Part shown: positions 24,289 through 64,000 of the stretch, one piece after another | How positions within the stretch are numbered: the first letter of the stretch is position 1 | Layout of the letters: each line of letters opens with the position of its first letter | NCBI GenBank assembly: GCA_024679065.1 | Contig: JAGIQG010000005.1 | Coordinates: 85,498,001-85,562,000, forward strand | DNA: 64,000 nt | Reading direction: 5' to 3' | From: Sphyrna mokarran | Lineage: Eukaryota | Made by a program: the position numbers and the translations under genes | The notes under the pieces: generated by a model | What the model was told of the DNA's origin: nothing | Database searches by the model: none | Seen by the model: only the letters and a program-made list of their open reading frames with translations

Positions 24289-24880
24289 TGATTTGATTTG
24301 ATTTATTATTGTCACATGTATAAGTGAAAAATATTGTTTTTTGCATGCTATACAAAGCATACTGTACATAGAAAATGAAAGGAGTGCAGAATGCAGTGTT
24401 ACAGTCATTGCTAGGGTGTAGAGAAAGATTAACTTAATGCAAGATAGATCCATTCAGAAATCTGATGGCCAACAGGGGAGAAGCTTGAGGCAGTTCGTGC
24501 ATGACCTCAGACTTCTGTATTTCTTTCCCGATGGAAGAAGGTGGAAGAAAATATGTCCAGGTGAGTGGGGCCCTTAATTATGCTGGCCGCTTTTCTGAGG
24601 CAGCGGCAAGAGTCAACAGTCAATGGATGGGAGGCTGGTTTGTGAGATGGATCGACTACATTCACAACCTTTTGTAGTTTCACGCAGTTTTGGGCAGAGC
24701 AGAAGCCGTACCAAGCTCAATACAACCAGAAAGAATGCTTTTTATGGTGCATCTGTTAAAAGCTGGTGAGAGTTGTAGCTGACATGCCAAATTTCCTTAG
24801 TCTTCCGAGAAAGTAGAAGTATCAATGTGGGGGACCAGGACAGGTTGTTGGTGATCTGGACATATAAAAACTCTAAACTC
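24289..24880 (-). mobile_element. Rex1/Babar-type LINE 3' end
   Basis: gatttgatttgatttattattgtcaca tail plus a body homologous to 27860-28330 and 34136-34740. Confidence 0.8.
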
Positions 24881-41254: not shown

Positions 41255-41740
41255 TACAAATAAGAGGAGTCATCCATTTGGTCACCTGAGCATGTCCTGC
41301 CATTCAATAAAATCATGGCTGATTTGTTTGCGTTGAGTTCCACATTCTCCATCTATCCCCAATAAGCTTAGAGTTTCCCACCTGACAAGAATGATATCTA
41401 TCTCCACCTTAAAAATATTTAGCGACCCTGCTTCAGTCTTCAGAGAAAAATGTTCTCATCTTTGTCCCGCAAAGGCATCCCCAAAATTCTAGAACAGACT
41501 TTCCTAGTTCTAGATTCACCTACAAGAGGATACTTTTTCTCAATGCACACATTGTCAATGTCGTTCAGGGTCTTATATACTTTAATCTAACTTTTCCTCA
41601 CTCTTCTATGCTCTAATTGAAATAAATCTAGTCTTTCCAACCTATTAATGTCAAAACAATTATTGGAGCTATCAATCTAGTAAACCTCCCTTCTGATCTG
41701 TCTCCAAAGCACTTAAATCTTTCCTTACACGGGATCAATA
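41255..41740 (-). mobile_element. Old CR1 3' end, paralog of 31865-32410
   Basis: cctgccattcaataaaatcatggctgat tail; shared aataagctt..gagtt and ccttaaaaata motifs. Confidence 0.65.
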
Positions 41741-41754
41741 TTGCAGCAACAACT

Positions 41755-41990
41755 CCCCAACAACTTTTGTTTTCACATCCCATGAGGCCAGTTGTCCATG
41801 TGCAATTACATGGCCAAGGAACGTGACCTGGGCTTTTTCCAAACTCACTCTTAGTCAGGTTTACCTCCTGAAGTCGAACAAATACTTCCATCAGATGATT
41901 CAAAGTTTCTTTCCATGTCTGATTAAAAATCACCAGACTGTCTACGTATGCCGCACAATTGGGTAATCCTGAAATAACTCTGTTGATTAA
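41755..41990 (-). mobile_element. Gypsy RT fragment
   Basis: Reverse strand LPNCAAYVDSLVIFNQTWKETLNHLMEVFVRLQEVNLTKSEFGK (YxDD region). Confidence 0.75.
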
Positions 41991-42239
41991 TCAGAGAGCT
42001 GCCAAAATCATGTTTTATGTTCAAAAAAAACCCTCAAAATTTACTAACATCACAAAGTGTTAATGTTGATTGTGCAAATCCTTGTTTCTAATGGATCTCT
42101 TTAGTCATACCACTTCTTAATCAGTTTAATTATGGATAAATTTACTGAGCACAGCTCTATTCTACACTGCACAGTATTTGGTGTACAGTCTCACAAAACC
42201 CTCTTTTCCTGAATTGCAACATCCGTGCCATTATGTTCA

Positions 42240-42770: not shown

Positions 42771-43641
42771 CTTTTAGATATTTTTGTTCTGTCTTCACAA
42801 AAGAGGACACAAATAACTATCAGAAATGTTGGGGACAGAACAAAAGTATGCCTTAGGTTGGTCAGCCATTCCTTATTATGTCATTATAAATTCTCCTGTT
42901 TCTGAATGTAACATACTTGCACAAACTTTACAAGTCACCTTTTAAGTTCAACATTATTAGTGAGTTTCTGTGCTTGTTTAATGCAAACTTGTCAATCTCA
43001 CACTGGACTGGCAAACTAAATGTAGATTCAGTTCCTTTGTCTGGCTTCTGTTGGTGCTTAACGTTATTCTTTTATTTGTTACAACTTCATATGATCTGGA
43101 CTCATTGCACACTTTGGGCATTTCTGTGAAAGAGTGCATGATTCTAAGCAGTTGTCTTTAATTATAGACTATGTAGTTTGTCACCTTGCATATTGGTCAT
43201 ACACAATCTGCATTCTCCCATGTGTTCCAGAGGTTCTTTTCTATGTCAGAGAAATGGGACAGTGATGGCTTGGCAACACTATCGTAATGTGGCTTCTGAA
43301 TATGATTTCTGCTGGTGCGTCAAAGACCAAATGTAGTATTGTGTCCCTTCAGCATAACATCTCCTTGGTGGCAACGCACTTCTTCATTGATTTAGTATTT
43401 TTCTGGGAGAATCTGGGACTTTCTAATGCTGTTCAGGCGAATGTTCCTCTTTGATTCGTGACAGTGACAGGCCCTTCTTCTCATCTGAAATACAGATGAG
43501 AAAAAGACAGTGTTCCTTACATCCTGCATTCACACACCTCCTTCTGCCCGTGAACCAATAAATTAGAGATATCATTGAAAATTCCTTAGGACTGTTCTGC
43601 TCTCCATGCCAGTGTCAAGCCTGTGGCCTGCCCAGTGTAGA

Positions 43642-43714
43642 CACAGTAAGAAGTCTCATGGTGTTGTGAGACTTACTGTGTTTACCCCAGTCCAATGTTG
43701 GCACGTGCACATCA
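43642..43714. mobile_element. Collapsed palindromic Penelope-associated terminal fragment inserted in an array unit
   Basis: cacagtaagaagtctca-tggtgttg-tgagacttactgtg hairpin followed by ttaccccagtccaa...cacatca; absent from other units; agacac on both sides. Confidence 0.6.
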
Positions 43715-46116
43715 CTGCAGACACGGCATCCTAAGGCAATCCTTTGCAGGTGAGTTACAATCTGGAGGTCCACGGTCAGTTCTGACAATGAGAATTTGGT
43801 CGTTAAAACTTGAACTCAGCTAACATTAATTTTCTATGTCTTGAGAAAGTAACTAATCAGATATCCCCCAAGATCACCCCAAAATGATGACTCTGAAATC
43901 CATTTACATGCCTTAAGATGACTCTATCATCTTCAAGCTTGTTTTTCAAACTGTATCATCACTCATTAAAAGGCAAAGATGGACAGGGGGGGTAATCCAT
44001 GAACAGCCCTCTAAATACATGCATAGTGTGGTACAATCACCACATAGTCTATTAAAAGCAATAAGTAACATTGTTTGCAAATGAGGCAATCTCTTCGAAC
44101 AACTACCTGTCCAGCATCTTCCCCTGATGCCCCATCAGGTCATGTTTGGCCGACAATCATGTTTGCAATTTAAGTTCTTGCTCCACTCCCCAGTCCTGAC
44201 TTCTACTATCTCCAACCTGCTACCTGTGCCCTTCCATTCTTGCCTCTGTTTCATCCTTCTTACGTTGGGCTGGTAAGTTAAAAGTAAATTTAGTTTTTGA
44301 AGACACAATACCAAGTTCCCTTGTCTGGTTTCTGTTTGTGCTTAACATCATTCCGTTGGGTGTTGCAACTTCACATGATCTAGATTCACTACACACTTTG
44401 GATTCTTCTGTGACAGAATGAATGATTCCAAGCTGTTGTCTTACTTGCAGACTGCAGTTTGTTTTTTGCTTGTTGGTCATACACTAACTTCATCCTTCCA
44501 TGTTTTCTACAACTTATGACTTGGCAAGGCTGTCCTAATGAGGTTTCTGAACATGCTTTCTGCTGGTGCATCCAAGTCCACGTGTAAAAATGTATCCCTT
44601 CCAGGTCAAATGTAGATTCAGAGAATAAACCATTGCTTGTAAGGAGTTAGTCTGCAGTTAATCTCTATAAGAATTCTGCAGCCATCTGGTTTTCTCGACA
44701 TGTGTGCCATATCGAAGATGTGCAATGGGCTCTTCATTTGAACTGGGTTCTCACCCTCTTTGAACCATCTGCTTCAACATCTACCTTGTCCAATTAACAC
44801 CCTGCTCCTCCATTTTTTTCCCTCAGGTCAACGCATCTCACATTTCCAGCACTAGGTTGCACAGGGTAGAGCTATTCGTGACCAATACATCATCAAGAGG
44901 CAAGCACTTCAGAATGCATCAACATGAAAAATACAATGAGAGCTCCCTGAGCAGGTAGCACAAATTTGCAGGATATGCTTTCTAGGATCAAAAGCCGGCA
45001 GTTCAGGAAGTGAAATCCATTACAATTAATTGAATTTGTAGCTAATCTGAGATTGACTTGCATCATTGATGTGGAATTGAACATATTGGTTAAGTGTTAC
45101 TGAAAACAGTATCTTCCACTTGTCAACCTGTGTGTCACTATTTGTGTGATTTCGCAAAGATCCCAACTGGGAACCTGAAAAGACCTGCAGATAATCAAGT
45201 CCTGATTTAGCAATTCTTCTGGACAATCTGTGACTTCCTAAAGCTCTGCTCAAGCAAACGTTCTTCCTAGATGTGACAATTGAGGCCCTTCTTTATATTT
45301 GAAATTCAGCTGGGAAAACAACAGTGTTTCCTGCGTTCAGCATTCATGTTTCTCTTCTGTCCTGGAGCAAATAGATTGGAGACATCACTGAAACTTCCTC
45401 ATGACTGCTCTTCTCCCCAAGCCAATGGTCGTTCCATAGTGTAGACATAGCATCCCAAAGCAACCCTTTGCAGGTGAACTACAATCTGGAGATCTGTGTT
45501 TGCTTCGACAATGAGCATTTGGCCCTTGAAACTAGAATTCAGTTGACACTTCTTCTCGATGTCATCAGCAAATAATTAATCAGATATTCCTAAGATTGTC
45601 CCAAAATGGTGACCTGGAAATCCTCTTACGTGCATTGACACCATTCCGGTATCATTACTTTCAAGCATCCTTTTCAAACTGCATTATCACTCAGTCAAGG
45701 GCAAACATCTTGCTGCTAACTTTTCTAAGTGTAACTAAAGCTTCAAACACACACCAAATTTGTCACATCTGCCCAAACAGTCACTGCCACCTAATTCACA
45801 ATGCTCCTGTTATTTTCCAGTCTCCTTGGCACCATCATTGCTCACGCTGACCTTTTTATTTGTTGCTCTCTGTTTCTCATTAAGGTTAATGCACCATGCC
45901 CTTTCCTGACCCGAGCTTTCTTTTATTGAAGCCAGCTTGTTTCCAAAATATCTCTCCCCATCCCCTGTACTCGAACCACCCAAGAAGATCATACAATATC
46001 CTACATCCACCCAATGACTACTCAATTGATGATATAACAAATTCAAAAGCCTCACGATTCTGGTGAGGTGTGCTGCCCAAATCATCCTTTGATGATTTGA
46101 TGGACAGCCCTCTAAA

Positions 46117-46292
46117 GACCTACCTTGCATTAAAAGTTGATCTTTGTCTACAGCTTAGTATAACTGTAACACTACATTCTGCATGCCTCTACTTCCTTCT
46201 CTATGAATGGTATGCTTTGTTTATGAAGCATGCAAGAAATAATACTTTTCACTTTTTGCTAATACATTGAACAATAATGAATAAAATCAAAA
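46117..46292 (+). mobile_element. Rex1/Babar 3' tail inserted in an array unit
   Basis: Reverse complement of the Rex tails at 24289, 25971 and 34136; splits cagccctctaaa|taccccc, which is intact at about 57520. Confidence 0.8.
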
Positions 46293-49200
46293 ATACCCCC
46301 ATAATGTGTGGTACAATTGCTGCATAGTCTATTAAACAGGCAGCATTGCCTCATTTGCAGACAATCTATTCTTACAACCTCTGGTCCAGACTACTTTGTA
46401 TACCTCCCCTTTTGCTCTATTGTCCCTGCCACACCATGTCCCTCCAACATCACATGTTTGCAGCTTAAGACCTTGCCCCATGTCATCTACCATCTCCAGC
46501 CTGCTACCTATGACCTTTCTCCCATTTCTGTCTCTGTTTCACCCTTTTCACATTGGACTGGTAAACAAAACATTGACTCGGTTTTTGAAGATATAGTACC
46601 AAATTCCCTTGTCTGGTTTCTGTTTGTGCTTAACATCAATGTGTTGTGTGTTGCGACATCATACAATCAGGATTCACTGCACTCTTTGGATACTTCTGTG
46701 AAAGACTGAATGATTCCAAGCTGTTATCTTACTTGCAGACTATGTATTTCGTTGCATGTTGGTTGTACACCATCTTCATCCTCCCATGTTTTCTCCAAGT
46801 TCTCTTCTGTGTCAGAGAAATGGGATTGGTGATGGCAACACTGTTGTATTGTGGCTTCTAAATATGATTTTCTCTGCTGCGTTAAAGTCCAAGAGTAAAA
46901 TGGGTCCTTCTAGGTTAAATGTAGATCTAGAGAATAAATCATTGCATGTGAAAGTTAGCCTGCAATTAACCTCCATAGGAATTCATTAGCCATCAGGTTT
47001 TTCAACATGTCTGCCATATTGCCATTTGTGTGATTCCACAAAGATCCCTCGAGGCCTGGAAAGACACGCTGATAATCAAGTCTTGTGCTGGAACGTTTTA
47101 CAAAGCCACTGACACATGGTTCCTTCCAAATCCTGGCAGCATGAAGTCTTCAAGGAACAGGCAGTTTATCTAAATTAGTAAATGCCTTGACAAAAATGCT
47201 CCTTGTTGAATCTTCTTTTACACATTTCCATGTATGGGCTGCATCTTCCATCTCTTTTTTGCATCATACTTCTTCATTGATATCACAATTTTTCAGGAGA
47301 ATCTGCAACTTCCTAGGGCTTTGCTCAGCCTACTGCTCAGGCAAATGTTCCTCCTGGATCTGTGACAAATGGTGACAGACCCTTTTTCTCATTCGAAATG
47401 CAACTGGGAAAATGACAGTGTTCCTTGCATCCTGTATTCACACTCTTCTTTTGGCCATGAACAAATGAATTAGAGACATTACTCAAACTTCCTTAAGACT
47501 ATCCTTCTCTCCAAGCCAGTGTCAAGCCAATGGTCTGCCAACAATATAGACACAGCATCTCGAGGCAACCTTTTCACGTGAACTACAATCTGAAGGTCCA
47601 TGGTCGGCTTTGACAATAAACATTTGGCTCTTAAAAATGGTACTCAGCTGACATTAGTTCTCTATATCTTGAGCAAATTGATCAGATATTTCCAAGATCA
47701 CCCAAAATGGTGACCATGAAATCCATTTACATACATTGAAACCACCTCCCGTATTTCAAGCTTGTTTTTCAAACTCCACCCATCATCCTTGGTACTATCA
47801 TTGCTCCCAGTGACATTTCTATTTGTTGCACCCTTATTCCCAAGGCCTTCTTTTATTGAGGCTAGCTTTAATTGCTCAAAAACCTCACCAAATTCACAGC
47901 ATTCTGATCCACACAATGGGATCAGACAATACCCATTCCTGGCCCAGACTCTTCAACTGCTGATTTAACAAATTCAAATACCTCACCATTCTGGTTAAGG
48001 TGCTCTGTCCAAACTATACACAAGTGACCAAGACATGTAAGCCAAGGACAGTCCACTAAATATATCCAATGAGCGTGATATAATCGCCATACAGTCTATT
48101 AAGCAGGCAATCAGCAGCATTGCCTCAATTGCAAATAGTGTCTTCTTACAATCCCTTGACCAGATTCCATCACAAACTTCCCCACTGACGCTGGAGGCTG
48201 GGCCAGACCATGTCTAGCCAACTTCACATGTTTATAATTTCAGTCCTTGCTCCATTCCCATCCTGACTCTGTCCACCATCTCTACCCAGCTACTTATGCA
48301 TTTCTTTCCATTCTTGCCACTGTTTCACCCTTCTCACATTGGTCTGGTAAGCCAGAAGTAGATTTAGTGTTTGAATATGCAGTACCAAGTCCATTATCTA
48401 CCTTTTGCTTGTGCTAAACATTCTTCCATTGGTTGTTGCAACTTCATATGATCTGCAGTCACTGCATACTTTTGATATTTCTGTTAACTAATGAATGATT
48501 CCTAGCTATTGTCTTACTTGCAGACTATGTATTTCATCACCTTCCCTTTTGTTGTACTTTTTCATCATCCTTCCATACTTTCCCGAAGTTCTCTTCTATG
48601 TCAGAGAAATGGACAGGTGGTAGCTTGGCAACACTATCCTAACATGGCTTCTGAACATGATTTCTGTTGATGCATCAAAGCCCAAATGTAAAAATATGTC
48701 CCTCCAAGGATACATGGAAGAAACCATTGCTTGTAAGAATTATCTTGTATTTAACCACCAAAGGAATTTTGTAGCTATCAGGATTTCCAGACATGACCGC
48801 CATATTAGAGATGTGCAATGGGATCTTCATTCGGCTGAGCTAAGTCCTCACCATCATCAGATCCATTCACTTCAATATTCTCCTTGGGCAATTAACATCT
48901 TGTTCCTCCATCTCTCCCTCAGGTCAACACCTCTCACATTTGCAGCACTAGGTTGCGCAGGGTACAGCAAAGCAATGATGATGTGAAACACACTCTCTGG
49001 TCAGTACTGCAGAGCCATTTGTGGCCAGTTGAAATATCAATAGTGCATCATCAGGAGGCAAGCACGTGAGATTGTGTCAACTTGAAAAATTTGTGAGAGT
49101 TTCCTAACTACCTGGCATAAATATGCTGGATCAGATTTCCAGCATCAAAAGAAAAGGAAGCAAGCAGTTCTGAAAGTGCAGTCCATTACAATTATTGAAA

Positions 49201-52200
49201 TTGTGCTGCTGTAGGTCCATCATCTCTGTCAGTTTGGCTTGCATTACAATTCTGGAACTGAGCATATTGGTTAACATTATTGAAACCAGTATCTTTCACC
49301 TGTCTTAAGATTCGTGTTATTTCACAAAAATCCCAAACGGAGGCCTGAAAAAGACTGCTGACAATTAAGTCCTGTGCTGGAACTTCTTACAAAGCCACTG
49401 GCATGTGGTTCCCTCCAAATCCTGGTGGTATGTGTTCTTCAACAAGCAGGAAGTTTGTCTGAGCTAGTAAATGCCTAGGCAAACAATGGTGCCTGTGGCA
49501 TCTTTTTTCACTCATTTCCAGATATGGGCTGCATCATCTATATCCCCTTTGTCGTACCACATTTCTTCATGGATTTAGCAATTCTTCAGGAGAATCTGTG
49601 ACTACCTCGCACTCTGCTCAGATGAATGTTCCTCTTCGATCAATGAAAACTGCTGACGGACCTTTCTTTATATTCTAAATACAGCAAAAAGTAAGTGTTC
49701 CCTGCATCCTGCTTTCACATTGCTCCTTATGTCCATTAACAATTAGATTGGAGGCATCGCTGAAATTTTCTTATGACTATTCTTCCTTCCAAGCCAGTGT
49801 CAAGCTAATAGTCTGCCCACAATGTGGACATGGCATCCCAAGGCAACTCTTTCCAGGTGAACTACAATCTGCAAGTCCATGGTTGGCTCCGAGAATGAGC
49901 ATTTGGCCCTAGAAACTAGAACTCAGCTGACAATGGTCCTCCAACTCTTGAGCAAATAATTGATCGGACCTCACTAAGATCATTCCAAAATGGTGATTTC
50001 AAAACTCTTTAATATGCGTTGAGACCACTCCTATATCATTATTTTCAAGTTTGTTTTTCAAGTTGCATTATCACTCAGTAAAGGGCAAAGATGTTGCTGC
50101 TAACCATCCCAAGTGTAACAGCTTCAAACACACACCAAATTCATCACATAGTAACTGCCACTTAATTCACATTGTTTCTGTTAATTTCCAGTATCCACCC
50201 ATTATCCTTGGCACCATCATTGCTCACACTGACATTTCTATTTGGTGGGCCCTTGTTTCCATTAACATTAATGCACCATGCCTTTTGCTGACCTGAGCCT
50301 CCTTTTATTGGGGCTAGCTTTAATTTTGAAGATATCTCCCCAAATTTACTGCACCTTGATTCACATAATAAGATCAGACAATACCTTATTTCCGGCCTAG
50401 ACTACTCGACTGCCGATTTAACAAATTCAAATGTCCTGCCATTCTGGTTAAAGTGCCCTGTCCAAACAACAGATCAGTGCCTCAGTCATGTCAGTCATGT
50501 CAATGATGGTCAGCCCACGAAATACATCCATACAGTTGACACAATCGCTGCACAATTTATTAAGCAGGCAATCAGCAGCTCTGCCTCATTTACAATCTCT
50601 TCTTGGAACTCCTTGACCATTCCCATCACAAATTTCTCCTCTGTCCCTAATGGCCCCGCAGACCATGACCAGTCACCATCACGTGTTTGCAACTTAAGAC
50701 CTTGCCCCACTCCCAGTCCTGAGACCCTGCCACCTATGCCTTTCTTGCTACTCTTGCCTGTTTCACCCTTCTCACATTGGTCTGGTAAGCTGAAAGTAGA
50801 TTTAGATTTTGAAGACGATGTACCAATTCTCTTGTTTGCCTTCTGTTCAACATTGTTCCATCGGATGTTGTGACCTCATATGATCTGGATTCATTGCACA
50901 CTTTGCATAGTTCTGTGAAAAAAACAAATGATTCCAAGTTGTTATCTTCCTTGCAGATTATGTAGTTCCTCGCTGTGCATGTTTCATCCTCCCATGTTTT
51001 CCCCAAGTCCTCTTTCATGTCAGATAAATGGGATAAGTGATAACTTGGCAACACTGTCATAATGTGACTTCTGAACATGATTTCTGCTGGTGTGTCAACG
51101 ACCAGGTGTAAAAGTGTGTCTCTTCAAGGTCAAATGTCAATAGAGAATAAACCATTGCCTGTAAGAGTTAGTCTGCATTCAACCTCCATAAGAATTTGGT
51201 AGCCATCAGATTTTCCTGCAATGTCTGCCATATTAACATTTGTCAAAGTCCCAAGTGGAAGCGTGGAAAATCTGCTGTGCTGGAACCTTTTATGAAGCCA
51301 CAGATGTGTGCTTACCTCCAAATCCTGGTGGCACAGGTTTTTCAAAAGACAGGAGTTAGCAAATGCCTAGACAAGCTATGGTGCTTGTGGCATCTTCTTT
51401 CACTCATTTCCATATATGGACTGCATCTTCCATACTCCCTTGGTTGTGCCACACTCCATTGATTTACCAATTCTTTGGGAGAATCTGTGACTTCTGAGGA
51501 CTCTGCTCAGGTCTACTACTCAGGCGAATTGGATCTGTGATAATTGGTGACAGACTCTTCTTCTCATTCCAAATACAGCTGGGAAAAAGGCAACGTTTCT
51601 TGCATCCTGTATTCACACTCTTCATTGGTCTGTCGAGAAACAGATTAGAGTCATAATTGAAACTTCCTTATGACTGCTCTTCTCTCCAAGTCAGTGTCAA
51701 ACAATGGTGTGCCACAATGTAGACACGGCATCTCAAAGCAACTCTTTGCAGATGAATTACAATATAGAGATCTGCTGTCAGCTCCGAGAATGAGCATTTG
51801 TCTGCTGAAACTAGAACTCGGCTGACACTAATTCTCCATGTCTTGAGCCACTAATTTAATTGGCTAACACTAAGATCATCCCAAAATTGTGACCATGAAA
51901 TCCACTTACATGCATTGAGGCCACTCCCACATCATTATGTTCATGCTTCCTTTTCAAACTGTGTTATCACTCAATAGAGCAAAGATATTGTTGCTAACTT
52001 TTCAAAGTGAAACCAATAGCTTCAAACACACCAAATTCAACATCTGCCCAGTCACTGCCTCAGAATTCACATCCCTCCTGTTTATTTCCCATCACCACCC
52101 ATTATCTTTGATACCATCATTGCTCCCATTGATATTTCTATTTGTTGCCCCTTTAGAGTGCCATTAATGTTCATGCATCATGCCCTTTGTTGATCTAAGC

Positions 52201-53345
52201 CTCCTTTTATTGAAACCTGCTTTAATTTCCAAATACGCCCCCCCAGCATCCGAACTATCCCTTCCATTCGAACATTCCCCTCTTCCCTTTGGCCGTGGTG
52301 CCTTGCCCAACAGTGTCCAGCCAACATCAAATTTGCAACTTAATTTCTTGCCCCACTTCCCAGTCTTGATTTTGTCTAGCATCTCCATTCTTCTACTTGT
52401 GCCCTTCCTCCCACTCCTGCCTAAGTTTCACCATTCTCACACTGGACTGGGACCTGAAATGTAGATTCAATTTTTGAAGATGTAGTACCAAATTCTCTTG
52501 TCTGGCTTCTGTTTGTGCTTAATATCATTCCATTGTGTGCTGCTACTTCATACAATCCAGACTCATCGCACACTTTGGATACTTCTGTGAAAGTATGAAT
52601 GATTCCAAGCTGTTGTCTTACTTGCAATTTATGTAGTTCATTGCCTTGCGTGTTGGTCGTATGCCATCTTCATCCTCCATGTTTTCCTGAAGTTCTCTTC
52701 TATGGCAAGGAAATGGGACATGTGATGGCTTGGTAATACTAACCTAAAGTGTCTTTGGAACATGACTTCTGCTTGTACGTCAAAGACCAAGTGTAAAACC
52801 GTATCCCTTTAAAGTAACATGCTGATGTGGAGAATGAACTATTGTTTGTAAGTGTTAGTCTGTATTTAACCTCTGTAAGTTAAAACTTTAATAATATCGT
52901 GTATTCTTCATCCGGATCAGCTAAGTCCTCACCATCTTCAATCCATTCGCTTCAACGTCCTCTCCCTCCAATTAAGATTCTGCTCCTCCATTTCTCTCTC
53001 AAGTCAACATCTGCAGCACAAGTTCCACAGGAAACAGCAAAACAATGATGTGAGACACTCTCTGAGGTGGGAACTGCAGAGAACTACTTCGTGACCAGTC
53101 CAGATATCAATAATACATCATCAGGAGCCAAGCACTTGACATTGCATCAGCATAAAGGATTCACGAGAATTCCCTGAATACCTCGCACAAATATGCCGGC
53201 AGTGCTTTCCGGGATCAAAAGTAAGCCAGCACTTCCGAAAGTGAAATCCATTTCAATTATTGAACTTGTGAGGAATCTGAGATTGCTGCAAGCCCAACAC
53301 CTCTGTCAGTCTGGCTGGCATCATTCATGTGGAATTGAACATATT

Positions 53346-54001
53346 AGAACATAGAACATTACAGCGCAGAACAGGCCCTTCGGCCTTCGATGTTGCACCG
53401 ACCATTATAAAAAGCAATGACCCTCCAAACTAAACCATTCCCTTCTCTTCCATAAACTTATCAACTAACCTCTTAAACGACACCAAACTTGGCACATCTA
53501 CAACTGCCGCAGGCAGGGCATTCCACTCCCTAACCACCCTCTGGGTAAAGAACCTACCCTGATATCCGTCCTATAACTATCACCCCTTAATTTAAAGCTA
53601 TGTCCCCTCGTGCTAGCTTTCTCCATCCTAGGAAAAAAGGCTATCACTGTCCACCCTATCAAAACCTCTAATCATCTTATATGTTTCAATAAGGTCTCCT
53701 CTTAGCCGCCTTCTTTCTAACAAAAACAACCTCAAATCCCTCAGCCTCTCTTCATAAGACCTGCCCTCCATACCATGCAACATCCTGGTAAACCTCCTCT
53801 GTACCCTCTCCAATGCCTCCACATCTTTCTTATAATGTGGGGACCAGAACTGCACACAATACTCCAAGTGCGGCCGCACTAGAGTTTTGTACAGTTGCAA
53901 CATGACGTTGCGGCTCCGAAATTCAATCCCCCTACCAATAAAAGCTAAGACTCCGTATGCCTTCCTAACAACCTTATCGACTTGACTGCCTACTTTCAGG
54001 G
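53346..54001 (-). mobile_element. Young CR1 3' fragment, same subfamily as 26069-27800
   Basis: Near-identical to 26069-26720; ORF LYKTLVRPHLEYCVQFWSP...LERRRLRGDL; target-site duplication atatt (53341-53345 and 54002-54006). Confidence 0.95.
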
Positions 54002-55489
54002 ATATTGGTGAGTAATAATTGAAATCCATATCTTTCACCTATCTTATGATTTGTATTCTGCCATTTGTGTTATTCCACAAAGATTTCAAGCCCCACACTG
54101 GAACCTCTGATAAAGCCAATGGTATGAGGTGCCCTCCAAATCCTGACAGCATGAATTCTTCAAGGAACAGGAGGTTTATCTGAGTTAGTAAATGCCTGAA
54201 GAAGCAATGGTGCCTGTGGTGTCATCTTTCACTGATTTCCTTATGTGGCTACATCTCCTGTCTCTTTTGGTCACGCCATACTTCATCGATTTAGCAGTTC
54301 TTCAGGAAAATCTCTGACTTTCTAGGGTAGGACTCTGCACAAGCCTGCTGTTCCTCCCGGATCCATGCCAGTGATGAGGCCTTCCGCTCATTCGAAATAT
54401 AGCTGGGAAAAAGGCAGTGTTCTTTGTATCGTGTATTCACACTCCTTCAGTCTGTGAACAAATAGATTGAAAACATCACTGAATCTTCCTCATAATTGCT
54501 GTTCTCTCCAAGCCAGTATCAAGCCAATTGTCTACCAACAGTGTAGACATGGCATTCCAAGGCAATCTTTTGCAGGTGAACTACAATCTGATGATCCATT
54601 GTCGCCTCCAATGAGATTCGGATCTTGAATCTACAACTTAGCTGACTCTACTTCACCATGTCTTGAGCAAATAATTAGTTGGATGTCCTTAAAATCATGC
54701 CAAAACAATGATTCTGAAATCTTCTTACGTGCTTTGAGTCATTCCTATATTATTTTCAACCTGGTTTTTCAAACTGCACCATCATTTAGTAAAGTGCAAA
54801 GATGTTGCTGCTAACCTTTGCAAGTCTAACAGCTTCAAACACACACAAAATTCATCACATCTGTCCAGTACCACTGTCTCCTAGTTTACCTCTTTCCTGT
54901 TACACTCCAAACTTCACCCATTACACTTGGCAGCATCATTGCTCACAGTGACATCTGTTGGGCCCCTTTCTCATTAATGTTAATGTATCATAGTTTGAGT
55001 GAGCTTCACTTTAATGAGGCCAGTTTTAATTTCCAAGATATCTTCCTAAATGAGATCAGACAACACCCTACTTCTTGTCAAGACTACTCAACTGCTGATT
55101 TAACAAATTCAAATGCCTCGCCATTCTGATTATGTGCTCTGTCTAAAACACGATGCTATCCAAGATATATAAGCCATGGACAGTCCACTAAATATGCCCA
55201 TTAAGTCTGGTATAATCGCAGCAGTTTATTAAACAGGCAATCAGCAGCACTACCTCATTTGCAAACAATTTCTTCTTACAACGCCTTGGCCAGACTCCAT
55301 GAGAAACTTTCTCTCTGGTCCTGGTGGCCGTTCCAGACAATGTCCAAACAATTTCACATGTTTACAAATTAAGTCATTGCCCCACTCTCCAGTCCTTACT
55401 CTGTCTACCATTTCCACTCTGCAACTTGTGCTTTTCCTCTTACTCTTGCCTCTCTTTCACCTTTCATATATTGGGCTGGTAAGCTAAAA

Positions 55490-55830
55490 GTAGATTTAGT
55501 TTTTGAAGACGCAGTACCAATTTCCGTTGCCTGGCTTCTGTTCATGGTTAATATCGTTCCATCGGGTGTTGTGACTTCATATGATCTGGATTCATTGTAT
55601 ACTTTGTATACTTCTGTTAAAGAATGAATGATTCCAAGCATTGTCTTACTTGTTGACTATGTATTTTGTTGCCTTGAATGTTGGTTATATGTCATCTTAA
55701 TCCTCCCAGGTTTTCCGGATGTTCTATTCAATGGCAGACAAATGGGTCAGGCAGTGGCTTGATACCACTGTTCTAATGTGACTTCCGAACATGAGTTCTG
55801 CTAATGCGTAAAAAACCAAATGTGAAAGTG
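55490..55830 (-). pseudogene. Representative Gypsy integrase C-terminal fragment of the array unit (present in all 10 units)
   Basis: Unit consensus APAEIMFRSHIRTVLPSHHL...GRMKMVYDQH...EVSKVCxESRSYEVxTPNGxxLxxNRSQxRE, cf. the Mag/K02A2.6-type motif SPAELxxGRxIRTxLP...PRSYxVxTxxGxxLRRNR. Confidence 0.85.
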
Positions 55831-56049
55831 TTTCCAAACAAGCTCAGATATCAATGTGGAGAAGAAACCATTGCTTCTAAGAATTAGATTGTATTTAACC
55901 ACCGCAGGAATTTTGTAGCCATCAGGTTTTCTAGACATGAATGTCATATTGGAGATATGCAATAGGTTCTTCATCCAGCTTAGCTAAGTCCTCACCATCT
56001 TCAGACCCATTTGCTTTAACATTCTCCTTGGCCAATTAACATATTGCTC

Positions 56050-56330
56050 TTCCATTTCTTCCTCAGGTCAACACCTCTCACATTTGCAGCGCAACGTTGT
56101 GCAGAATAAAGGAAAACAATGATGATGTGAGAATCAGTGTTCAGTACTGCAGAGCTCTTCATGAAAGTACAAATATCAGTAATATATCATCAGGAGGCGT
56201 ATACTTGAGACTGCATCACCATGAAGGATTTGTGACAGTTTGCTGAGTACCCCGCACAAATATGCAGGATCTGCTTTCTGGGAACAAAAGTAAGCTGGCA
56301 GTTCAAAAAGTGAAATCCATTATGATTTTT
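56050..56330 (-). pseudogene. Representative Harbinger transposase fragment of the array unit (also about 44805-45030, 48900-49200, 52985-53260, 60220-60490, 62435-62720)
   Basis: NGFHFLNCQL..RKQILHICAGYSANCHKSFMVMQSQV (cf. RKGFHSLNVQL..ILHVCARYPGSCHDSFILRQS), then LQY*PE..HIII.CCTLRNL..EMEE (cf. ALQYSPERVSxIIxxCCALHN); GDKGYP segment deleted. Confidence 0.85.
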
Positions 56331-59319
56331 AGACCTTTGAGGAAGCTGAGATTGCTGCAAGCCCACTACCTCTGACAGACTTGCTTGTGTCATTTCTATG
56401 GAATTGAACATGTTGGTAAGCGTTTTTGAAAACAGTATCTTTCACCTGTGTTATGATCCGTTATTTTGCAAACTCCCAAGTGGAGGCCCAAAAAGACCTA
56501 CTGAAAATCAAGTCCTGTGCTGAATCTTCTTACATTTGGTTCCCTTCAAATCGCCTATACCACCCCCCCCCCAATGTCGCACCAAATTTCATTGATTTAG
56601 CAAATTCTTTGGTTGAATCTGCAACGTTTTTGTGCTCTGCTCAGGCAAATGTTCCTCTTGGATTGATGCCAACTGGTTACAGACCCTTCTTTATATTCAG
56701 AATACAGCTGTGAAAAAGGCAGTGTTCCATACATCCTATATTCATACCCCTCCTTTCTGTCTGTGAACAAATATATTGGAGACATCACCGAATCTTTCAC
56801 GTAACTGCTCTTCTTACCATGGCAATGTTAAGTCACAATGTAGACATGGCATCCTGAGCCAATCCTTTACAGGTGAACTACAATATAGAGGTCCACAGAT
56901 GGGTCTGACAATAAGCATTTGGATCTTGAAACTAGGTGACAGCTGACACTGTTTCTTCATGTTTTGAGCAAATAATTAATCGAATCTCCCTATGATCAGC
57001 CAAAAATGGTGACCCTTAAATGCTCTTACATGCCTTGAGGCTACTCCCATATTATTATTTTCAAACTTGTTTTCAAACTAAACCATCACTACACCATCTT
57101 GCTGCTAATTTTTCCAAGTGTAACCAACAGCTTCAAACACATGACAAATTCATCACATCTGTCCAAAGAGTCATTGTCTCCAAATTCGTATTGCTCGTTA
57201 ATTTCTAGTTTTCATTCATTACCCATGGCATCATCATTGCTTGCACTGACAATTCTATTTGTTGCTTCTGGTTCCCATTAATGTTGATGCACCAGGCTTT
57301 TTGTTGACCTTAGCCTTATTTTATTCAGGTTAGCTTTAATTTCAAAAATACCCATGTGAATTCTCTGCACTCTGATTCACCCAAATAAGATCAAACAATA
57401 CCCTACTTTTCACCAAGACTAATCAATTGCCAATTTAACAAATTCAAATGCTCGCCATTCTAGTGAAGGTATGCTGCCCTCATGTAAGCCATGGGCTGCC
57501 CTCATGTAAGCCAAGGGCAGCCCTCTAAATACCCCATACAATATGGTACACAGTCTACTAAACAAGCAGATAGCAACACTGTTTGCAAATGAGGCAATCT
57601 CATCTTACGATTCCTTTTCCAGACACAATTGTAACTTTACTTACTGGCCCTGATGCCCTCACCAGATCATGTCCAGTCAACATCGCATGTTTGCAACTTA
57701 AGATGTTACTCCACTCCGCAGTCCTGAATCAAGTACATCTCACCCTGTTATCTGTGCCCTTCCAGTTTCAACCTTCTGACTATGTATGGAATGGTAAATG
57801 AAACACAGATTCAGTTTCTAAAGGTGCAGTTCCAAATTCACTTGCCTTGTTCTGTGTGTGCTTAACATCATTCCATTGTGTGTACTACTTCATATGATCT
57901 GGAATCACTGCATGCTTTGGATATTTCTGTTAAACAACTAATGATTCCAAGCTATTGTCTTACTTGCAGACTATGTATTTCATCACCTTCCCTTTTGGTT
58001 GTACACTTTCATCATCCTTCCATATTTTCTCAAAGTTCTCTTCTATGTCAGAGAAATGGGACAGGTGGTGGCTTGGCAACACTGTCCTAATCTGACTTCT
58101 GAACATGATTTCTGCTGGTGTGTCAAAGACCAAGTGTAAAAGTGTGTCTCTTCAAGGTCAAATGTCAATAGAGAATAAACCATTGCTTGTTAAGAGTTAG
58201 TCTGCATTCAACCTCCATAAGAATTCGGTAGCCATCAGATTTTCCTGGCATGTCTGCCATATTAACATTTGTGTTATTCTGCAAAGGTTCCAAGTGGAAG
58301 CGTGGAAAATCTTCTGACAACCCAGTCCTGTGCCGGAACATTTTATGAAGTCACAGACATGTGGTTGCCTCCAAATTCTGGTGGCACAGGCTTTTCAAAG
58401 GACAGGAGTTAACAAATGCCTAGGCAAGCAATGGTGCTTGTGGCATCTTCTTTCACTCATTTCCATATATAGACTGCATCTTCCATACTCCCTTGGTTGT
58501 GCCACACTCCATTGATTTACCAATTCTTTGGGAGAATCTGTGACTTCTGGGGATTCTGTTCAGGTCTACTACTCAGGCAAATTGGATCTGTGATAATTGG
58601 TGACAGACTCTTCTTCTCATTCCAAATACAGCTGGGAAAAAGGCAATGTTCCTTGCATCCTGTATTCACACTCTTCATTGGTCTGTCGAGAAACAGATTA
58701 GAGTCATCATTGAAACTTCCTTATGACTGCTCTTCTCTCCAAGTCAGTGTCAAACAATGGTGTGCCACAATATAGACATGGCATCTCGAAGCACCCTTTG
58801 CAGATGAACTACAATCTGGAGGTCTGTGGTCGGCTCCGAGAATGGGCATTTGGCTCTTGAAACTAGAACTCAGCTGACACTAATTCTCCATGTCTTGAGC
58901 CACTAATTTAATTGGCTAACATTAAGATCATCCAAAAATTGTGACCATGAAATCCACTTACATGCATTGAGACCACTCCCATATCATTAAGTTCAAGCTT
59001 CCTTTTCAAACTGCGTTATCACTCAGTAAAGAGCAAAGGTATTGCTGCTAACTTTTCAAAGTGAAACCAATAGCTTCAAACAACAAATTCATCACATCTG
59101 TCCAAACAGTCACTGCCTCAGAATTCACATCCTTCCCGTTTATTTCCCGTCACCACGTATTAGCTCTGGTACCATCATTGCTCCCATTGATATTTCTATT
59201 TGTTGCCCCTTCCAGAGTGCCATTGATGTTTATGCATCATGTCCTTTGTTGATCTAAGCCTCCTTTTATTAAAACGTGTTTTAATTTCCAAGATACCCCC
59301 TCCCCCCATGCAAACTATC

Positions 59320-59524
59320 CTTGGAGAGAAGAGCAGTCATAAGGAAGTTTCAATGATGACTCTAATCTGTTTCTCGACAGACCAATGAAGAGTGTGAATA
59401 CAGGATGCAAGGAACATTGCCCTTTTCTCAGCTGTATTTGGAATGAGAAGAACAGCCTGTCACCAATTATCACGGATCCAATTCGCCTGAGTAGTAGACC
59501 TGAACAGAGTCCCCAGAAGTCACA
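59320..59524 (+). repeat. 205-bp inverted copy of 58539-58743
   Basis: cttggagagaagagcagtcataagg...ccccagaagtcaca is the reverse complement of tgtgacttctgggg...ctcttctctccaag; absent at the equivalent site of the paralog unit (about 52260). Confidence 0.95.
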
Positions 59525-62500
59525 TTCGAACCTTACCCTCTTTCTTCTGGCCCTTGTGCCCGCCAGACCATGTACAGCTAACATCAAATTTGCAACATAA
59601 TTCCTTGCACCACTCCCCAGTCTTGATTTTGTCTAGCATCTCCATTCTTCTACTTGTGCCCTTCCTCCCACTCCTGCCTATGTTTCACTCTTCTCACACT
59701 GGACTGGGACATGAAATGTAGATTCAATTTTTGAAGACGTAGTACCAAATTGTCTTGTCTGACTTCTGTTTGTGCTTAATGTCATTCCATTGTGTGTTGC
59801 TACTTCATACGATCCGGTCTCATTGCACACTTTGGATACTTCTGTGAAAGTACGAATGATTTCAAGCTGTTGTCTTACTTGCAATTTATGTAGTTCATTG
59901 CCTTGCATGCTTCATCCTCCATGTTTTCTTCAAGCATCCTTCTATGGCAGAGAAATGGGACAGGTGATGGCTTGACAATACTGACCTAATGTGGCTTTGG
60001 AACATAACTTCTGCTTGTGCATCAAAGACCAAGTGTAAAAGTGTATCCTTTTAAGGTAACATGCTGATGTGGAGAATGAACCATTGTTTGTAACAGTATT
60101 TAACCTCTGCAGGTTAAAACTTTGATAACATCATGTATTTTTCATCTGGATCAGCTAAGTCCTCACCATCTTCAAATCCATTTGCTTCAATGTTCTCTTC
60201 GTCAAATTAACATTCTACTCCTCCATTTCTCTCTCAAGTCAACATCTACAGCACAAGGTTGCACACAGGGAACAATAAAACAATGACGATGTGAGATACT
60301 CTGAGGTGAGAACTACTTCGTCACCAGTCCAAATATCAATATTACATCATCAGGAGCCAAGCACTTGACATTGCATAAGCATAAAAGATGCGTGAGAATT
60401 CCCTGAGTACCTCGCACAAATATGCGAGTCGTGCTTTCCGGGATCAAAAGTAAGCCAGCACTTCCGAAAGTGAAATCCATTTCAATTATTGAACTTGTCG
60501 GGAATCTGAGATTGCTGCAAGCCCAACACCTCTGTCAGTCTGGCTTGCATCATTTATGTGGAATTGAACATATTGGTGAGTAATTATTGAAGTCCACATC
60601 TTTCACCTGTCTTACAATTTGTATTCTGCCATTTGTGTTATTCCACAAAGATTTCAAGCTCCGTGCCGGAACCTCTGATAAGGCCAATGGCATGAGGTGC
60701 CCTCAAATCCTGGCGGCATGAACTCTGATTTGCTAAGACTCTGCACAGGGCTGCTGCTCCTCCCGGATCCATGCCAGTGACAGGGCCATCTGCTCATTCG
60801 AAATATAGCTGGGAAAAAGGCAGTGTTCTTTGTATCCTGTATTCACACTCCTTCAGTCTGTGAACAAATAGATTGAAAACATCACTGAATCTTCCTCATA
60901 ACTGCTGTTCTCTCCAAGCCAGTAGAAAGCCAATAGTCTGCCCACAGTGTAGATATGGCATTCCGAGGAATCCTTTGCAGGTGAACTACAATCTGATGAT
61001 ACACTGTCGGCTCCAACAATGAGATTCGGACACTGAAACTAGAACTTAGCTAACAGTACTTCACCATGTCTTGAGCAAATAATTAATTGGATGTCCTTAA
61101 AATCATGCCAAAATGATGATTCTGAAATCCTCTTATGTACCTTGAGCCACTCCCATATCATTATTTTCAAACTGGTTTTTCAAACTGCACCATCACTTAG
61201 TAAAGTGCAAAGATGTCACTGCGAACCTTTGCAAGTCTAACAGTTTCAAACACACACAAAATTCATCACATCTGCCCAGTCCCACTGTCTCCTAGTTTAC
61301 GGACTTCCTGTTATGCTCCAATCTCCATCCATTCTACTTGGCAGCATCATTGCTCACACCGACATTTCCATTTGTGGGACCTCTGATCCCATGCATGTAA
61401 ATGTATCAAGCCTCACTCTACTGAGGCCAGTTTTAATTTCCAAGATATCTCCCTAAATGGGATCAGACAACACCCTACTTCTTGTCAAAACTACTCAACT
61501 GCTGATTTAACAAATTCAAATGCCTCGCCATTCCGATTAAGGTACTCTGTCCAAGGTATATAAGCCATGGACAGTCCACTAAATACACTCATGAAGTCTG
61601 GTATAATCGCAGCACAGTTTATTAAACAGGCAATCAGCAGCATTACCTCATTTGCAAACAATTTCTTCTCACAATGCCTTGACCAGACTCCACGGAGAAA
61701 CTTTCCCTCTGGTCCTGGTGGCCCTGCCAGACCATGTCCAGCCAATTTCACATGTTTACAAATTAAGTCATTGCCCCACTCTCCAGTCCTTACTCTGTCC
61801 ACTATTACCACCCTGCAACTTGTGCTTTTCCTTTTACACCTGCCTGGGTTTCACCCTTACTATATTGGGCTAGTAAGCTAAAAGTAGATTTAGTTTTTGA
61901 AGATGCAGTATCTATATCCCTCGGCTGGCATGGTTAGCATTGGTCCATTGAGTGTTGCGACTTCATATGATCTGGATTCATCGCATATTTTGCATACTTC
62001 TGTTAAAGAATGAATGATTCCAAGCATTGTCTTACTTGTTGATGATGCATTTTGTTGCCTTGAATGTTGGTTGTATGTCATCTTAATCCTCCCATGTTTT
62101 CCAGAAGTTCTCTTCAATGTCAGACAAATGGGTCAGGTGGTGGCTTGATACCACCATTCTAATGAGGCTTCTGAACACGAGTTCTGCTAACGCGCCAAAG
62201 ACCAATTGTAAAAGTGTTTCCAAACAAGCTCAAAAATCAAAGTGGAAAAGAAACCATTGCTTCTAAGAACGAGCCTGTATTTAACCACCGCAGGAATTTT
62301 GTAGCCATCAGGTTTCCCAGCCATGAATGTCATATTGGAGACATGCAATACGTTTTTCATCCAGCTTAGCTAAGTCCTCACAATCTTCAGACTCATTTGC
62401 TTTAACAGTCTCCTCGGCCAAATAACATCTCGCTCTTCCATTTCTCCCTCAGGTCAACACCTCTCACATTTGCAGCACAAGGTTGCGCAGGATAAAGGAA

Positions 62501-64000
62501 AACAATGATGGTGAGAATCTCTGTGTTCAGTACTGCAGAGCTCTTCATGAGAATACAAATATCAAGAAAACATCATCAGGAGGCATGTTCTTGAGACTGC
62601 ATCACCATTAAGGATCTGTGACAGCTCGCTGAGTACCCAGCACAAACATGCAGGATCTGCTTTCTGAGATTAAAAGTAAGCTCGCAGTTCAAAAGTGAAA
62701 TAAATCCATTATGATATTTGAACCTGTGAGGAAGCTGAGATGCAAGCCCACCACCTCTGACAGACTTGCTTGTGTCATTTCTGTGGAACTGAACACGTTG
62801 GTAAGCGTTTTTGAAAACAGTATCTTTCTCCTGTCCTGTGATCTGTGTTATTTCATAATGGTCCCAAGTGGAGATCTGAAAAGACATGCTGACAATCAAG
62901 TCCTGTGCTAGAACCTCTTACAAAGCCACTGGCATTTAGTTCCTTCAAATCATCCACATGCCCCTAGGTTGCACCACATTTCATTGATTTAGCAATTTTT
63001 TGGTTGAATCTGCAACTTTCTTGTGCTCTGCTCAGGCAAATGTTCCTCTTGGATTGATGCCAACTGGTGACAGACCTTTCCTTATATTCAGAATACAGCT
63101 GGGAAAAAGGCGGAGTTCCATATATCCTATATTCACATACCTCTTCTGTCCATGAACAATTAGATTGGAGACTTTGCTGGAACATTATGACTATTCTTCC
63201 CTCCAAGACAGTGTCAAGCCAACAGTCTGCCAACAGTCTTGACGTGGCATCCCAAGGCAATCCTTTGCAGGTGAACTACAATCTGAAGGTCTGTGGCCGG
63301 CTCTGAGAATGAGCATTTGGCCCTTGAAACTAGAACTCAACTGACACTGGTTCTCCAAGTCGTGAGCAAAGAATTTATTGGACCTCCCTAAGTTCATCCC
63401 AAAATGGTAATTCTGAAATCCTTTTATAATGTGTTGAGACCACTCCCATATCATTATTTTCAAGCTTGATTTTCAAGTTGTATTATCACTCACTGAAGGG
63501 CAAAAAGATGTTGCTGCTAACCTTCCCAAGTGTAACAGCTTCAAATACACACCAAATTCATCACACCTGGCCACATAGTAACTGCCACTTCATTCACATC
63601 CTGTTAATTTCCAGCATCCATCCATTACCCTTGGCACCATCATTGCTCACACTGACATTTCCATTTGTTGCACCCTTGTTTCCATTAACATTGATGCACC
63701 ATGCCTTTTGTTGATCTGAGTCTTTCATTGAAGGTAAATTTAATTTCTAAGATACCCTCCAAATTTACTGCACTCTAACCCACACAATGAGATCAGCCAA
63801 TATCGTATTCCTGGCCAAGACTATTCAACTGCCGATTTAACAACTTCAAATGTCCTGCCATTCTGGTTAAGGTGCCCTGTCCAAACAACACACCAGTGCC
63901 CAAGACATGCCAATGATGGTCAGCCCACAAAATACTTCCATAGAGTGTGACATAATCGCTGCACAATTTATTAAGCAGGCAATCAGCAGCACTGCCTCAT

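What the first reader, a model, noticed from the sequence alone, without database searches (positions are those of the whole stretch)
42980..64000. Macrosatellite built from a chimeric Gypsy-integrase + Harbinger-transposase + unknown unit
Seen: at least 10 head-to-tail units of about 1.7-2.3 kb. Each fuses about 350 bp of a class I Gypsy integrase end with about 300 bp of a class II Harbinger transposase (6 of 10 units) and an unassigned block, with both known fragments on the minus strand. I see no LTRs, TIRs or target-site duplications at unit borders and no intact ORFs. Inference: this is not a mobile element but a patch of decayed fragments from unrelated transposon classes amplified by unequal exchange. 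Units are clearly diverged from each other, so the array is old and has persisted.
Basis: partly seen in the sequence, partly recalled or inferred. Interest (0 to 1): 0.8.

Follow-up and report, generated by a model that had tools for sequence, protein, structure and literature searches.

The report
Old tandem array of dead transposons
A roughly 2.4-kb patch of broken jumping-gene remnants, probably in a shark genome, was copied head-to-tail at least ten times long ago and is now decaying like ordinary junk DNA, a clear example of an already described kind of repeat.

Summary
The array is real: ten units of 1.0-2.45 kb plus the start of an eleventh at 42,980-64,000, open at the window edge. 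Seven deep lineages are 71-77% identical (K2P 0.32). A later duplication of about three units (86-95%) and mosaic units point to unequal exchange. The Harbinger part is confirmed with shark HARBI1-like transposases and is larger than reported: about 950 bp per full unit, with protein-level hits in 9 of 10 units. The four 'Harbinger-less' units carry internal deletions. The Gypsy label rests only on recalled, colinear motifs; no database search confirmed it. About 900 bp per unit stay unassigned. Lesions are shared between units, Harbinger dN/dS is 1.02, and there is no convincing conserved island, RNA gene or Pfam-supported ORF. So the units descend from one already dead composite patch and have drifted near-neutrally since. 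One mild exception is a third-position excess in the integrase-like piece. Composite class I plus class II tandem monomers are known (TE-graveyard satellites; the human TAF11-Like macrosatellite). Verdict: new member of a known kind, modest interest. Copies elsewhere in the genome and orthologous arrays could not be checked.

The parts
42980..64000 (.). Degenerate tandem array, 10 units plus the start of an 11th, cut by the window end; the left end is truncated inside the integrase-like tail
   Evidence: self-BLAST and unit alignment
42980..43984 (-). U1, truncated; has its own large deletion removing most of the Harbinger part
43985..45981 (-). U2, with the Harbinger middle block
45982..47914 (-). 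U3, carries the shared 504-column Harbinger deletion and a 175-bp dispersed-repeat insertion
47915..50366 (-). U4, the most complete unit, used as the model for the blocks below
   Evidence: no gap of 40 columns or more
47915..48172 (.). Block D in U4, unassigned; lies 3' of the integrase-like tail on the minus strand
   Evidence: no hit (U5 copy) uninformative
48173..48742 (-). Ty3/Gypsy-like integrase C-terminal piece and tail in U4 (label from recalled motifs only); frame breaks shared between units
   Evidence: database searches negative
48743..49697 (-). Harbinger transposase relic in U4: C-terminal end 48,743-48,817, optional middle 48,818-49,348, N-terminal part 49,349-49,697; catalytic motif regions deleted
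   Evidence: phmmer E 3.5e-08, Pfam DDE_Tnp_4 on the hits, names, tblastn 49,596-49,216 and 48,975-48,835; the two ends beyond the HSPs are by eye
49698..50366 (.). Block C-upper in U4, about 670 bp, unassigned; upstream of the transposase relic
   Evidence: no hit
50367..52199 (-). U5, shared Harbinger deletion
52200..55048 (-). U6, interrupted by a CR1 3' end
53347..54001 (-). CR1-type LINE 3' end inserted in U6 and absent from its duplicate U9; flanked by a 5-bp ATATT duplication; 95.6% identical to 26,068-26,721
   Evidence: RVT_1 E 1.2e-29 on the longer copy; the family name CR1 is recalled
55049..57383 (-). U7
57384..59299 (-). U8, mosaic: a short U4-like stretch, then U5-like; shared Harbinger deletion
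59300..61455 (-). U9, duplicate of U6
59320..59524 (+). 205-bp inverted copy of U8 sequence 58,539-58,743 (96.6%)
61456..63785 (-). U10, mosaic: U7-like, then U4-like
63786..64000 (-). Start of U11, U5-like; cut by the window end
58012..63172 (.). Later duplicate of 50,984-56,783 (about three units, 86-95% identity)
63147..64000 (.). Later duplicate of 49,730-50,589 (85-93%), probably continuing past the window
46117..46291 (.). 175-bp dispersed repeat inserted in U3, also found at 24,292-24,450 and 34,136-34,296 in the opposite orientation

Best explanation
This is a degenerate composite macrosatellite: a local tandem duplication that stopped homogenising long ago. Step 1 (shown for Harbinger, inferred for Gypsy): in a transposon graveyard of a cartilaginous fish, a Harbinger transposase relic and a Gypsy-like integrase end, both already broken, came to lie side by side on one strand, joined within about 70 bp with no room for Harbinger's own 3' end, i.e. 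by deletion. Step 2 (inferred from a star-like tree): a patch of about 2.45 kb covering this junction and about 900 bp of unassigned neighbouring DNA was multiplied head-to-tail into at least seven lineages in a short time, most likely by unequal exchange or replication slippage and repair. Step 3 (shown): the units then diverged close to neutrally, lost pieces and took new insertions. Step 4 (shown): later unequal crossovers inside homologous sequence duplicated a block of about three units and left mosaic units, after which a CR1 end landed in one copy. The array most likely does nothing specific; it is recycled heterochromatin-type DNA.
For: Deep pairs are nearly equidistant (K2P 0.28-0.38, mean 0.32, 21 pairs), and the deep forks are unresolved (4 of 7 inner branches supported). 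Shared lesions show that the founder was already dead. In U6 the match to P0003 jumps from residue 250 (53,133) to 308 (53,127). In U6, U7, U9 and U10 P0002 residues 283-295 have no DNA. The integrase-like motifs change frame at the same places in the copies. Harbinger dN/dS is 1.02 (bootstrap 0.80-1.34), against a neutral simulation mean of 1.00, with no codon-position bias (p 0.29). There are 21 gap openings per kb, and CpG o/e is 0.26 with a TpG/CpA excess. The best conserved window reaches p 0.04 in only 1 of 5 window sizes, and the longest invariant run is 9 bp. Rfam gives 0 matches at gathering score and 3 weak scattered matches at E 0.7-5; there are 0 tRNAs. Duplication blocks 50,984-56,783 / 58,012-63,172 and 49,730-50,589 / 63,147-64,000 and the mosaic units U8 and U10 are the footprint of unequal exchange. 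No copy of blocks D, C or the Harbinger body was found in the 43-kb flank by nhmmer (best E 0.02 over 38 bp). The flank has only reverse-transcriptase Pfam hits (2 of 103 frames).
Against: The integrase-like piece shows a third-codon-position excess (p 0.009 for all columns, 0.025 without CpG columns). Its dN/dS is 0.81 (0.60-1.10), just below the lowest of 60 neutral simulations (0.82), although six-frame scans across the unit range from 0.57 to 2.10. A star-like tree is also what a burst of independent insertions would give. About 900 bp per unit are unidentified and could hold element termini. The rest of the genome was not available. The Gypsy label has no database support.
Confidence: 0.78

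Rival explanations
1. The unit is a non-autonomous chimeric mobile element, for example an internally deleted LTR retrotransposon that captured a Harbinger relic, with its LTR hidden in blocks D and C-upper, or a Helitron-type cargo. It formed the array by tandem insertion, LTR-LTR recombination or rolling-circle replication, and has dispersed copies elsewhere.
For: Star-like deep tree. Block D lies directly 3' of the integrase-like tail, where an LTR would be. Mild codon-position signal in that piece. A 140-165 bp relative of the tail lies at 37,076-37,240 (E 4e-12). These mechanisms are reviewed in PMC12628747, section 4.
Against: No shared polypurine tract at the expected place and no recurring terminal repeats. 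The left end of the array stops inside the tail rather than at a terminus. No flank copy of D, C or the junctions. Mosaic units and the multi-unit duplication need only unequal exchange.
Confidence: 0.12
2. The array is kept because it works: a one-strand piRNA or silencing source against Harbinger and Gypsy elements, a chromatin element, or a carrier of a small unrecognised exon or RNA gene, as gene-bearing macrosatellites are.
For: Both relics lie on the same strand, as do most recognisable relics in the window (by eye). The array is old. Known macrosatellites with TE fragments carry genes (TAF11-Like, RNU2; PMC5687341). One 30-bp window near 57,130 reaches p 0.04.
Against: Flat conservation profile. 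No Rfam, tRNA or Pfam cargo. Free deletion and insertion across most blocks. Fragments at only 23-39% amino-acid identity (one 17-residue HSP at 71%) to the shark transposases found would make poor piRNA guides against current elements (inference).
Confidence: 0.08
3. The array is an assembly artefact.
For: Long tandem arrays are hard to assemble; no reads were available.
Against: The units differ by 5-29% with private indels. One has a LINE insertion with a target-site-like duplication that its duplicate lacks. There are no Ns in the window.
Confidence: 0.01

Closest known systems
Composite satellite monomers from 'TE graveyards' (Satovic-Vuksic, Majcen, Plohl 2025, PMC12628747; abstract, section 5 whole and first part of section 4 read)
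   Same: A monomer with successive stretches of similarity to different TE types, in a region dense with decayed elements, tandemised after decay. This is the scenario the review proposes.
   Different: The unit here is large (about 2.4 kb), low-copy as far as seen (11 or more), no longer homogenised (71-77%), and the order of events can be read unit by unit. The review says the origin of such monomers is an open question.
Human TAF11-Like (3.4 kb; LTR MLT1E3 + disrupted Charlie2a DNA transposon + partial Alu) and RNU2 macrosatellites (PMC5687341, passages read)
   Same: Kilobase tandem units that contain both class I and class II fragments.
   Different: Those units carry a gene, and RNU2 units are described as nearly identical within an array. 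No gene was found here, and the units are highly diverged.
PIF/Harbinger DNA transposons; shark 'putative nuclease HARBI1' XP_072346022.1, XP_067901236.1, XP_067838441.1
   Same: The transposase relic is colinear with these proteins from the N-terminal region to near the C-terminus.
   Different: Catalytic motif regions are deleted, no Myb-like second ORF or TIRs were found, and it is not an element of its own.
Ty3/Gypsy LTR retrotransposons, Mag-like clade (label recalled, not from a call)
   Same: Three recalled integrase C-terminal motifs occur in the expected order on one strand.
   Different: Only a frame-broken end is present; no integrase core, RT, PPT or LTR was identified in the unit; no database hit.

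Membership tests
Macrosatellite / large tandem repeat | Head-to-tail units of kilobase size at one locus | tested here: met
   10 units plus a partial, 1.0-2.85 kb; size definition in PMC5687341
Macrosatellite / large tandem repeat | Units kept alike by ongoing concerted evolution | tested here: not met
   Deep units are 71-77% identical and the youngest duplicates 85-97%; this is a decayed array
Macrosatellite / large tandem repeat | Copy-number variation among individuals; total array length | not testable with these tools
   The window ends inside U11; no reads or other assemblies
Composite TE-graveyard satellite | Monomer made of successive fragments of different TE types | tested here: inconclusive
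   Harbinger shown; a second, non-Harbinger piece follows it, but its Gypsy identity rests on recalled motifs
Composite TE-graveyard satellite | Fragments already decayed before tandemisation, in a TE-dense region | tested here: met
   Shared deletions and frame breaks; the flank yields only RT Pfam hits and further relics
PIF/Harbinger transposon (as an element) | Homology to the DDE_Tnp_4 transposase | tested here: met
   31 HSPs, all on the minus strand, in 9 of 11 units; 0 in reversed or complemented controls
PIF/Harbinger transposon (as an element) | Intact DDE triad | tested here: not met
   The motif-bearing stretches have no DNA in the units checked
PIF/Harbinger transposon (as an element) | 25-50 bp TIRs, 3-bp TSD and a Myb-like second ORF (PMC9179366) | tested here: not met
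   No recurring inverted repeat in 3 of 3 full units scanned; no Myb Pfam hit in 55 frames; a very decayed TIR or ORF2 in block C cannot be excluded
Ty3/Gypsy LTR retrotransposon | Integrase homology | tested here: inconclusive
   The recalled RSY-type motif has 8 hits in the array (all minus, one per unit), 0 in the flank, shuffle mean 0.78 and maximum 3 of 50; the units are not independent. Pfam, protein, PDB and Atlas searches were negative
Ty3/Gypsy LTR retrotransposon | LTRs, PPT, PBS, RT/RNase H | tested here: not met
   No shared purine tract 3' of the tail and no RT Pfam hit in the unit sequence. PBS was not tested (no tRNA set); an LTR shared between tandem units would not show as an internal repeat
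Gene-bearing tandem cluster (RNA or protein gene) | A conserved cargo in each unit | tested here: not met
piRNA cluster | Strand-biased small RNA production in gonads | not testable with these tools
   No expression data

The most novel reading that the evidence does not exclude
The array is about 150-260 million years old, is orthologous across shark orders, and is retained as a one-strand small-RNA or chromatin locus built by amplifying one class I / class II junction. Alternatively, blocks D and C-upper are the termini of an undescribed chimeric non-autonomous element that carried a Harbinger relic and stacked itself in tandem.
Probability: 0.12. Interest if true: 0.7.

Novelty: new member of a known kind. 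Interest (0 to 1): 0.3.

Why it matters
It is a well-resolved vertebrate example of a proposed route from transposon graveyards to tandem repeats, whose origin the 2025 review calls open (PMC12628747). The order of events can be read from the sequence: fragments died first, a burst of tandem copying followed, homogenisation lapsed, a three-unit block was duplicated later, and then a LINE inserted. Because shark genomes change slowly, such an array may be datable by orthology and useful for measuring how long unselected arrays last. It reveals no new mechanism or function on present evidence.

Tried and rejected
Word-index protein searches found nothing: Harbinger alignment, 437 candidates, none at E<=0.001; integrase-like U5 frame, 126 candidates, none; U4 frame, 9 candidates, none at E<=10. 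PDB sequence searches gave nothing meaningful for the integrase-like piece or for the flank relics at 37.5-38.3 kb and 41.6-42.0 kb. Pfam gave nothing credible for 25 frames of those regions. The ESM Atlas returned C-type lectin clusters for the U5 frame (0.87, 122 of 256 features). I rejected this: the score is below 0.9, the look-alike stretch comes from a frame shift seen in that copy, and the other copies have a stop or other frames there. The Atlas gave only low-recognition DUF hits for the 193-codon plus-strand frame. A plus-strand frame across C-upper and D has few majority stops, but it shows no dN/dS signal and no family hit, so I did not accept it as an ORF. An uncorrected dN/dS of 0.57 for the integrase-like piece rose to 0.81 after transition-bias correction. 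Weak Pfam hits in the array (DUF7479 E 8e-04, SUa-2TM, Abhydro_lipase, DUF5655) are below gathering score and occur in single copies, so I treated them as chance. Three weak Rfam matches do not recur across units. TRF cannot see the array (period limit 500). The bacterial promoter scan was irrelevant and at chance level. U3+U5+U8 as one clade is neither shown nor rejected (p-AU 0.32). No fold or complex prediction was run, because the frames are broken.
Full report
The array is real. Self-BLAST shows a dense lattice of same-strand matches from about 43,030 to the window end. I cut it into ten units plus 215 bp of an eleventh and aligned them, leaving a 655-bp insert in U6 and an inverted piece in U9 out of the alignment. 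U1-U7 are 71-77% identical to each other. The exceptions in the array are U5/U8 86%, U6/U9 90%, U7/U10 85%, U5/U11 90% and U4/U10 79%. The window has no Ns, and the units have private indels, so an assembly artefact is very unlikely. The host is probably a cartilaginous fish: the only three proteins found are from sharks. This is an inference, not an identification.

Harbinger is confirmed and larger than reported. Pfam on 27 frames gave only weak DDE_Tnp_4 hits (E 0.002 and 0.053). A full HMMER search with one 1,121-codon minus-strand frame of U3-U4 returned 3 proteins at E<=0.001 (best 3.5e-08). All three carry DDE_Tnp_4 (E 4.5e-37 to 5.4e-18) and are named putative nuclease HARBI1 from Scyliorhinus, Heterodontus and Heptranchias. 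Mapped back by tblastn they give 31 HSPs at E<=0.5, all on the minus strand, in U2-U10, and none in reversed or complemented controls. U3 and U4 were in the query, so the independent support is U6, U7, U9 and U10 (best E per unit 4e-08 to 6e-06). In U4 the relic spans about 48,743-49,697, with both ends placed by eye beyond the HSPs. U3, U5 and U8 lack the same 504 alignment columns, and U1 has a different, larger deletion but keeps 150 aligned bases of the 5' part. Whether U3, U5 and U8 form one clade is undecided (p-AU 0.32).

The Gypsy label is plausible but not shown. Three motifs that I recall from Mag-like Gypsy integrase ends occur in order on the minus strand. The most specific has 8 hits in the array, one per unit, none in the 43-kb flank, and a mean of 0.78 (maximum 3) in 50 shuffles. 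The other two are not enriched convincingly on their own (23 hits against a shuffle maximum of 25; 12 against 15), and the units are homologous, so this is one observation, not eight. Per-copy readings show the motifs in three different frames with the breaks at the same places. Every database test failed: two word-index searches, Pfam, PDB and the ESM Atlas, which offered only a sub-threshold lectin look-alike. A second Atlas look at the least broken frame was not possible, so that test stays open. A 140-165 bp relative of the tail lies at 37,076-37,240 (E 4e-12), inside a relic that looks like Gypsy pol by eye but also has no database hit. About 245 bp (block D) and 670 bp (block C-upper) per unit remain unassigned after HMMER, Pfam, Rfam, Atlas and nhmmer tests.

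The founder was already dead. In U6 the match to P0003 ends at residue 250 (53,133) and resumes at residue 308 (53,127), and in U6, U7, U9 and U10 P0002 residues 283-295 have no DNA. By position these stretches hold the catalytic residues (motif positions recalled). The transposase end and the integrase-like piece meet within about 70 bp, too little for the second ORF and TIR that Harbinger elements carry (PMC9179366, passages), so the junction is best read as a deletion. No terminal repeat recurs across the three full units scanned, and no shared purine tract lies where a PPT should be.

Divergence since then looks close to neutral. The Harbinger pieces show no codon-position bias (p 0.29) and dN/dS 1.02 (0.80-1.34), against 1.00 in simulation. 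Conservation is flat: the best window reaches p 0.04 in one of five window sizes, and the longest invariant run is 9 bp. There are about 21 gap openings per kb between deep units, and CpG is depleted as in the flank. Rfam, ARAGORN and Pfam find no cargo. One result points the other way. The integrase-like piece has more variable third positions (p 0.009; 0.025 without CpG columns) and dN/dS 0.81 (0.60-1.10), just under the lowest of 60 neutral simulations. Six-frame scans elsewhere in the unit range from 0.57 to 2.10, and frame breaks shared between copies argue against selection on a protein, so I treat this as unresolved.

Unequal exchange left direct traces. The block 50,984-56,783 recurs at 58,012-63,172 (86-95%), and 49,730-50,589 recurs at 63,147-64,000 (85-93%). 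The switch points fall inside units: U10 is U7-like and then U4-like, U8 has a U4-like stretch and is then U5-like, and U11 is U5-like. The deep forks are unresolved, which suggests an early burst. A CR1-type 3' end (family name recalled; the longer copy has RVT_1 at E 1.2e-29) sits in U6 with a 5-bp flanking duplication and is absent from U9, so it came after the duplication. Its K2P to the copy at 26 kb is 0.044, against 0.11 for U6/U9 and 0.32 for the deep units. Scaling by whale shark / zebra shark dS of 0.061-0.111 over about 50 million years (PMC13100897, passages) gives roughly 145-260 million years for the burst. This is my extrapolation: the species is unknown, and dead repeats may decay faster than synonymous sites. 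The low shark mutation rate (PMC10587355, passages) points the same way.

Comparison with what is known. A 2025 review describes composite satellite monomers with successive stretches of similarity to different TEs and proposes that they arise by tandemising decayed 'graveyard' DNA (PMC12628747; abstract, section 5 whole, first part of section 4). Oyster satellites with fragmentary TE similarity are given the same explanation (PMC8268682, passages). The human TAF11-Like macrosatellite unit contains an LTR element, a disrupted DNA transposon and a partial Alu (PMC5687341, passages), so class I plus class II units are not new, although that one carries a gene. PMC9659126 (passages) reviews unequal crossover as the expansion route. 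Eight literature searches (listings only, apart from the papers named) showed no description of this particular shark array, and passages of two shark genome papers (PMC11406177; bioRxiv 10.1101/2025.06.08.657570) do not mention it. I read no supplements; the satellite table of PMC11406177 could bear on this. Repbase and Dfam were not available.

Verdict. This is a real, old, degenerate composite tandem array made from dead transposon pieces, most likely by local duplication and unequal exchange (0.78). A chimeric mobile unit (0.12) and a functional small-RNA or chromatin locus (0.08) are not excluded, because the rest of the genome, other species and expression data were out of reach. New member of a known kind; interest 0.3.

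Noticed in passing
window 9,227-10,261 (-): A separate decayed Harbinger transposase relic: weak colinear tblastn pieces (best E 0.011) with no DNA-level match to the array.
   Followed up: partly
window 15,061-15,720 (-): A 149-codon stop-free frame that by eye resembles the C-terminal part of a Harbinger second ORF (recalled); no Pfam hit.
   Followed up: partly
window 26,068-27,817 (-): A young CR1-type LINE with two long frames (331 and 240 codons, RVT_1 E 1.2e-29); an older relative lies at about 7,000-8,570.
   Followed up: partly
window 37,000-39,900 (-) and 41,500-42,030 (-): Two relics that look like Gypsy pol by eye, without database support. The first shares 37,076-37,240 and 37,502-37,548 with the array unit and has an internal duplication about 425 bp apart.
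   Followed up: partly
whole window: Most recognisable TE relics are on the minus strand (about ten, against three on plus at 13.3-14.2, 18.2-18.5 and 19.9-20.2 kb; by eye, untested). This could reflect an intron of a plus-strand gene or a one-strand piRNA cluster. No host exon was recognised.
   Followed up: no
window 59,320-59,524: A 205-bp inverted copy of sequence about 600-800 bp upstream (96.6%) at the U8/U9 border, a template-switch-like event after the three-unit duplication.
   Followed up: partly
U5/U8 versus U6/U9 and U7/U10: Identity along the duplicated block is uneven (91-97% versus 85-94% in 200-column windows), hinting at gene conversion or at more than one duplication.
   Followed up: no
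window about 57,130-57,160 (U7) and equivalents: The most conserved 30-bp window of the unit (0.92 mean identity, p 0.04 uncorrected), in the unassigned block.
   Followed up: partly
window 24,292-24,881, 27,852-28,324, 34,136-34,732, 46,117-46,291: An unidentified dispersed repeat family with several copies in the window, one of them inside U3.
   Followed up: no
window 30,050-30,454 and 35,688-36,623 (-): Two related relics that look like Rex1/Babar-type LINEs (label recalled, no Pfam hit).
   Followed up: no
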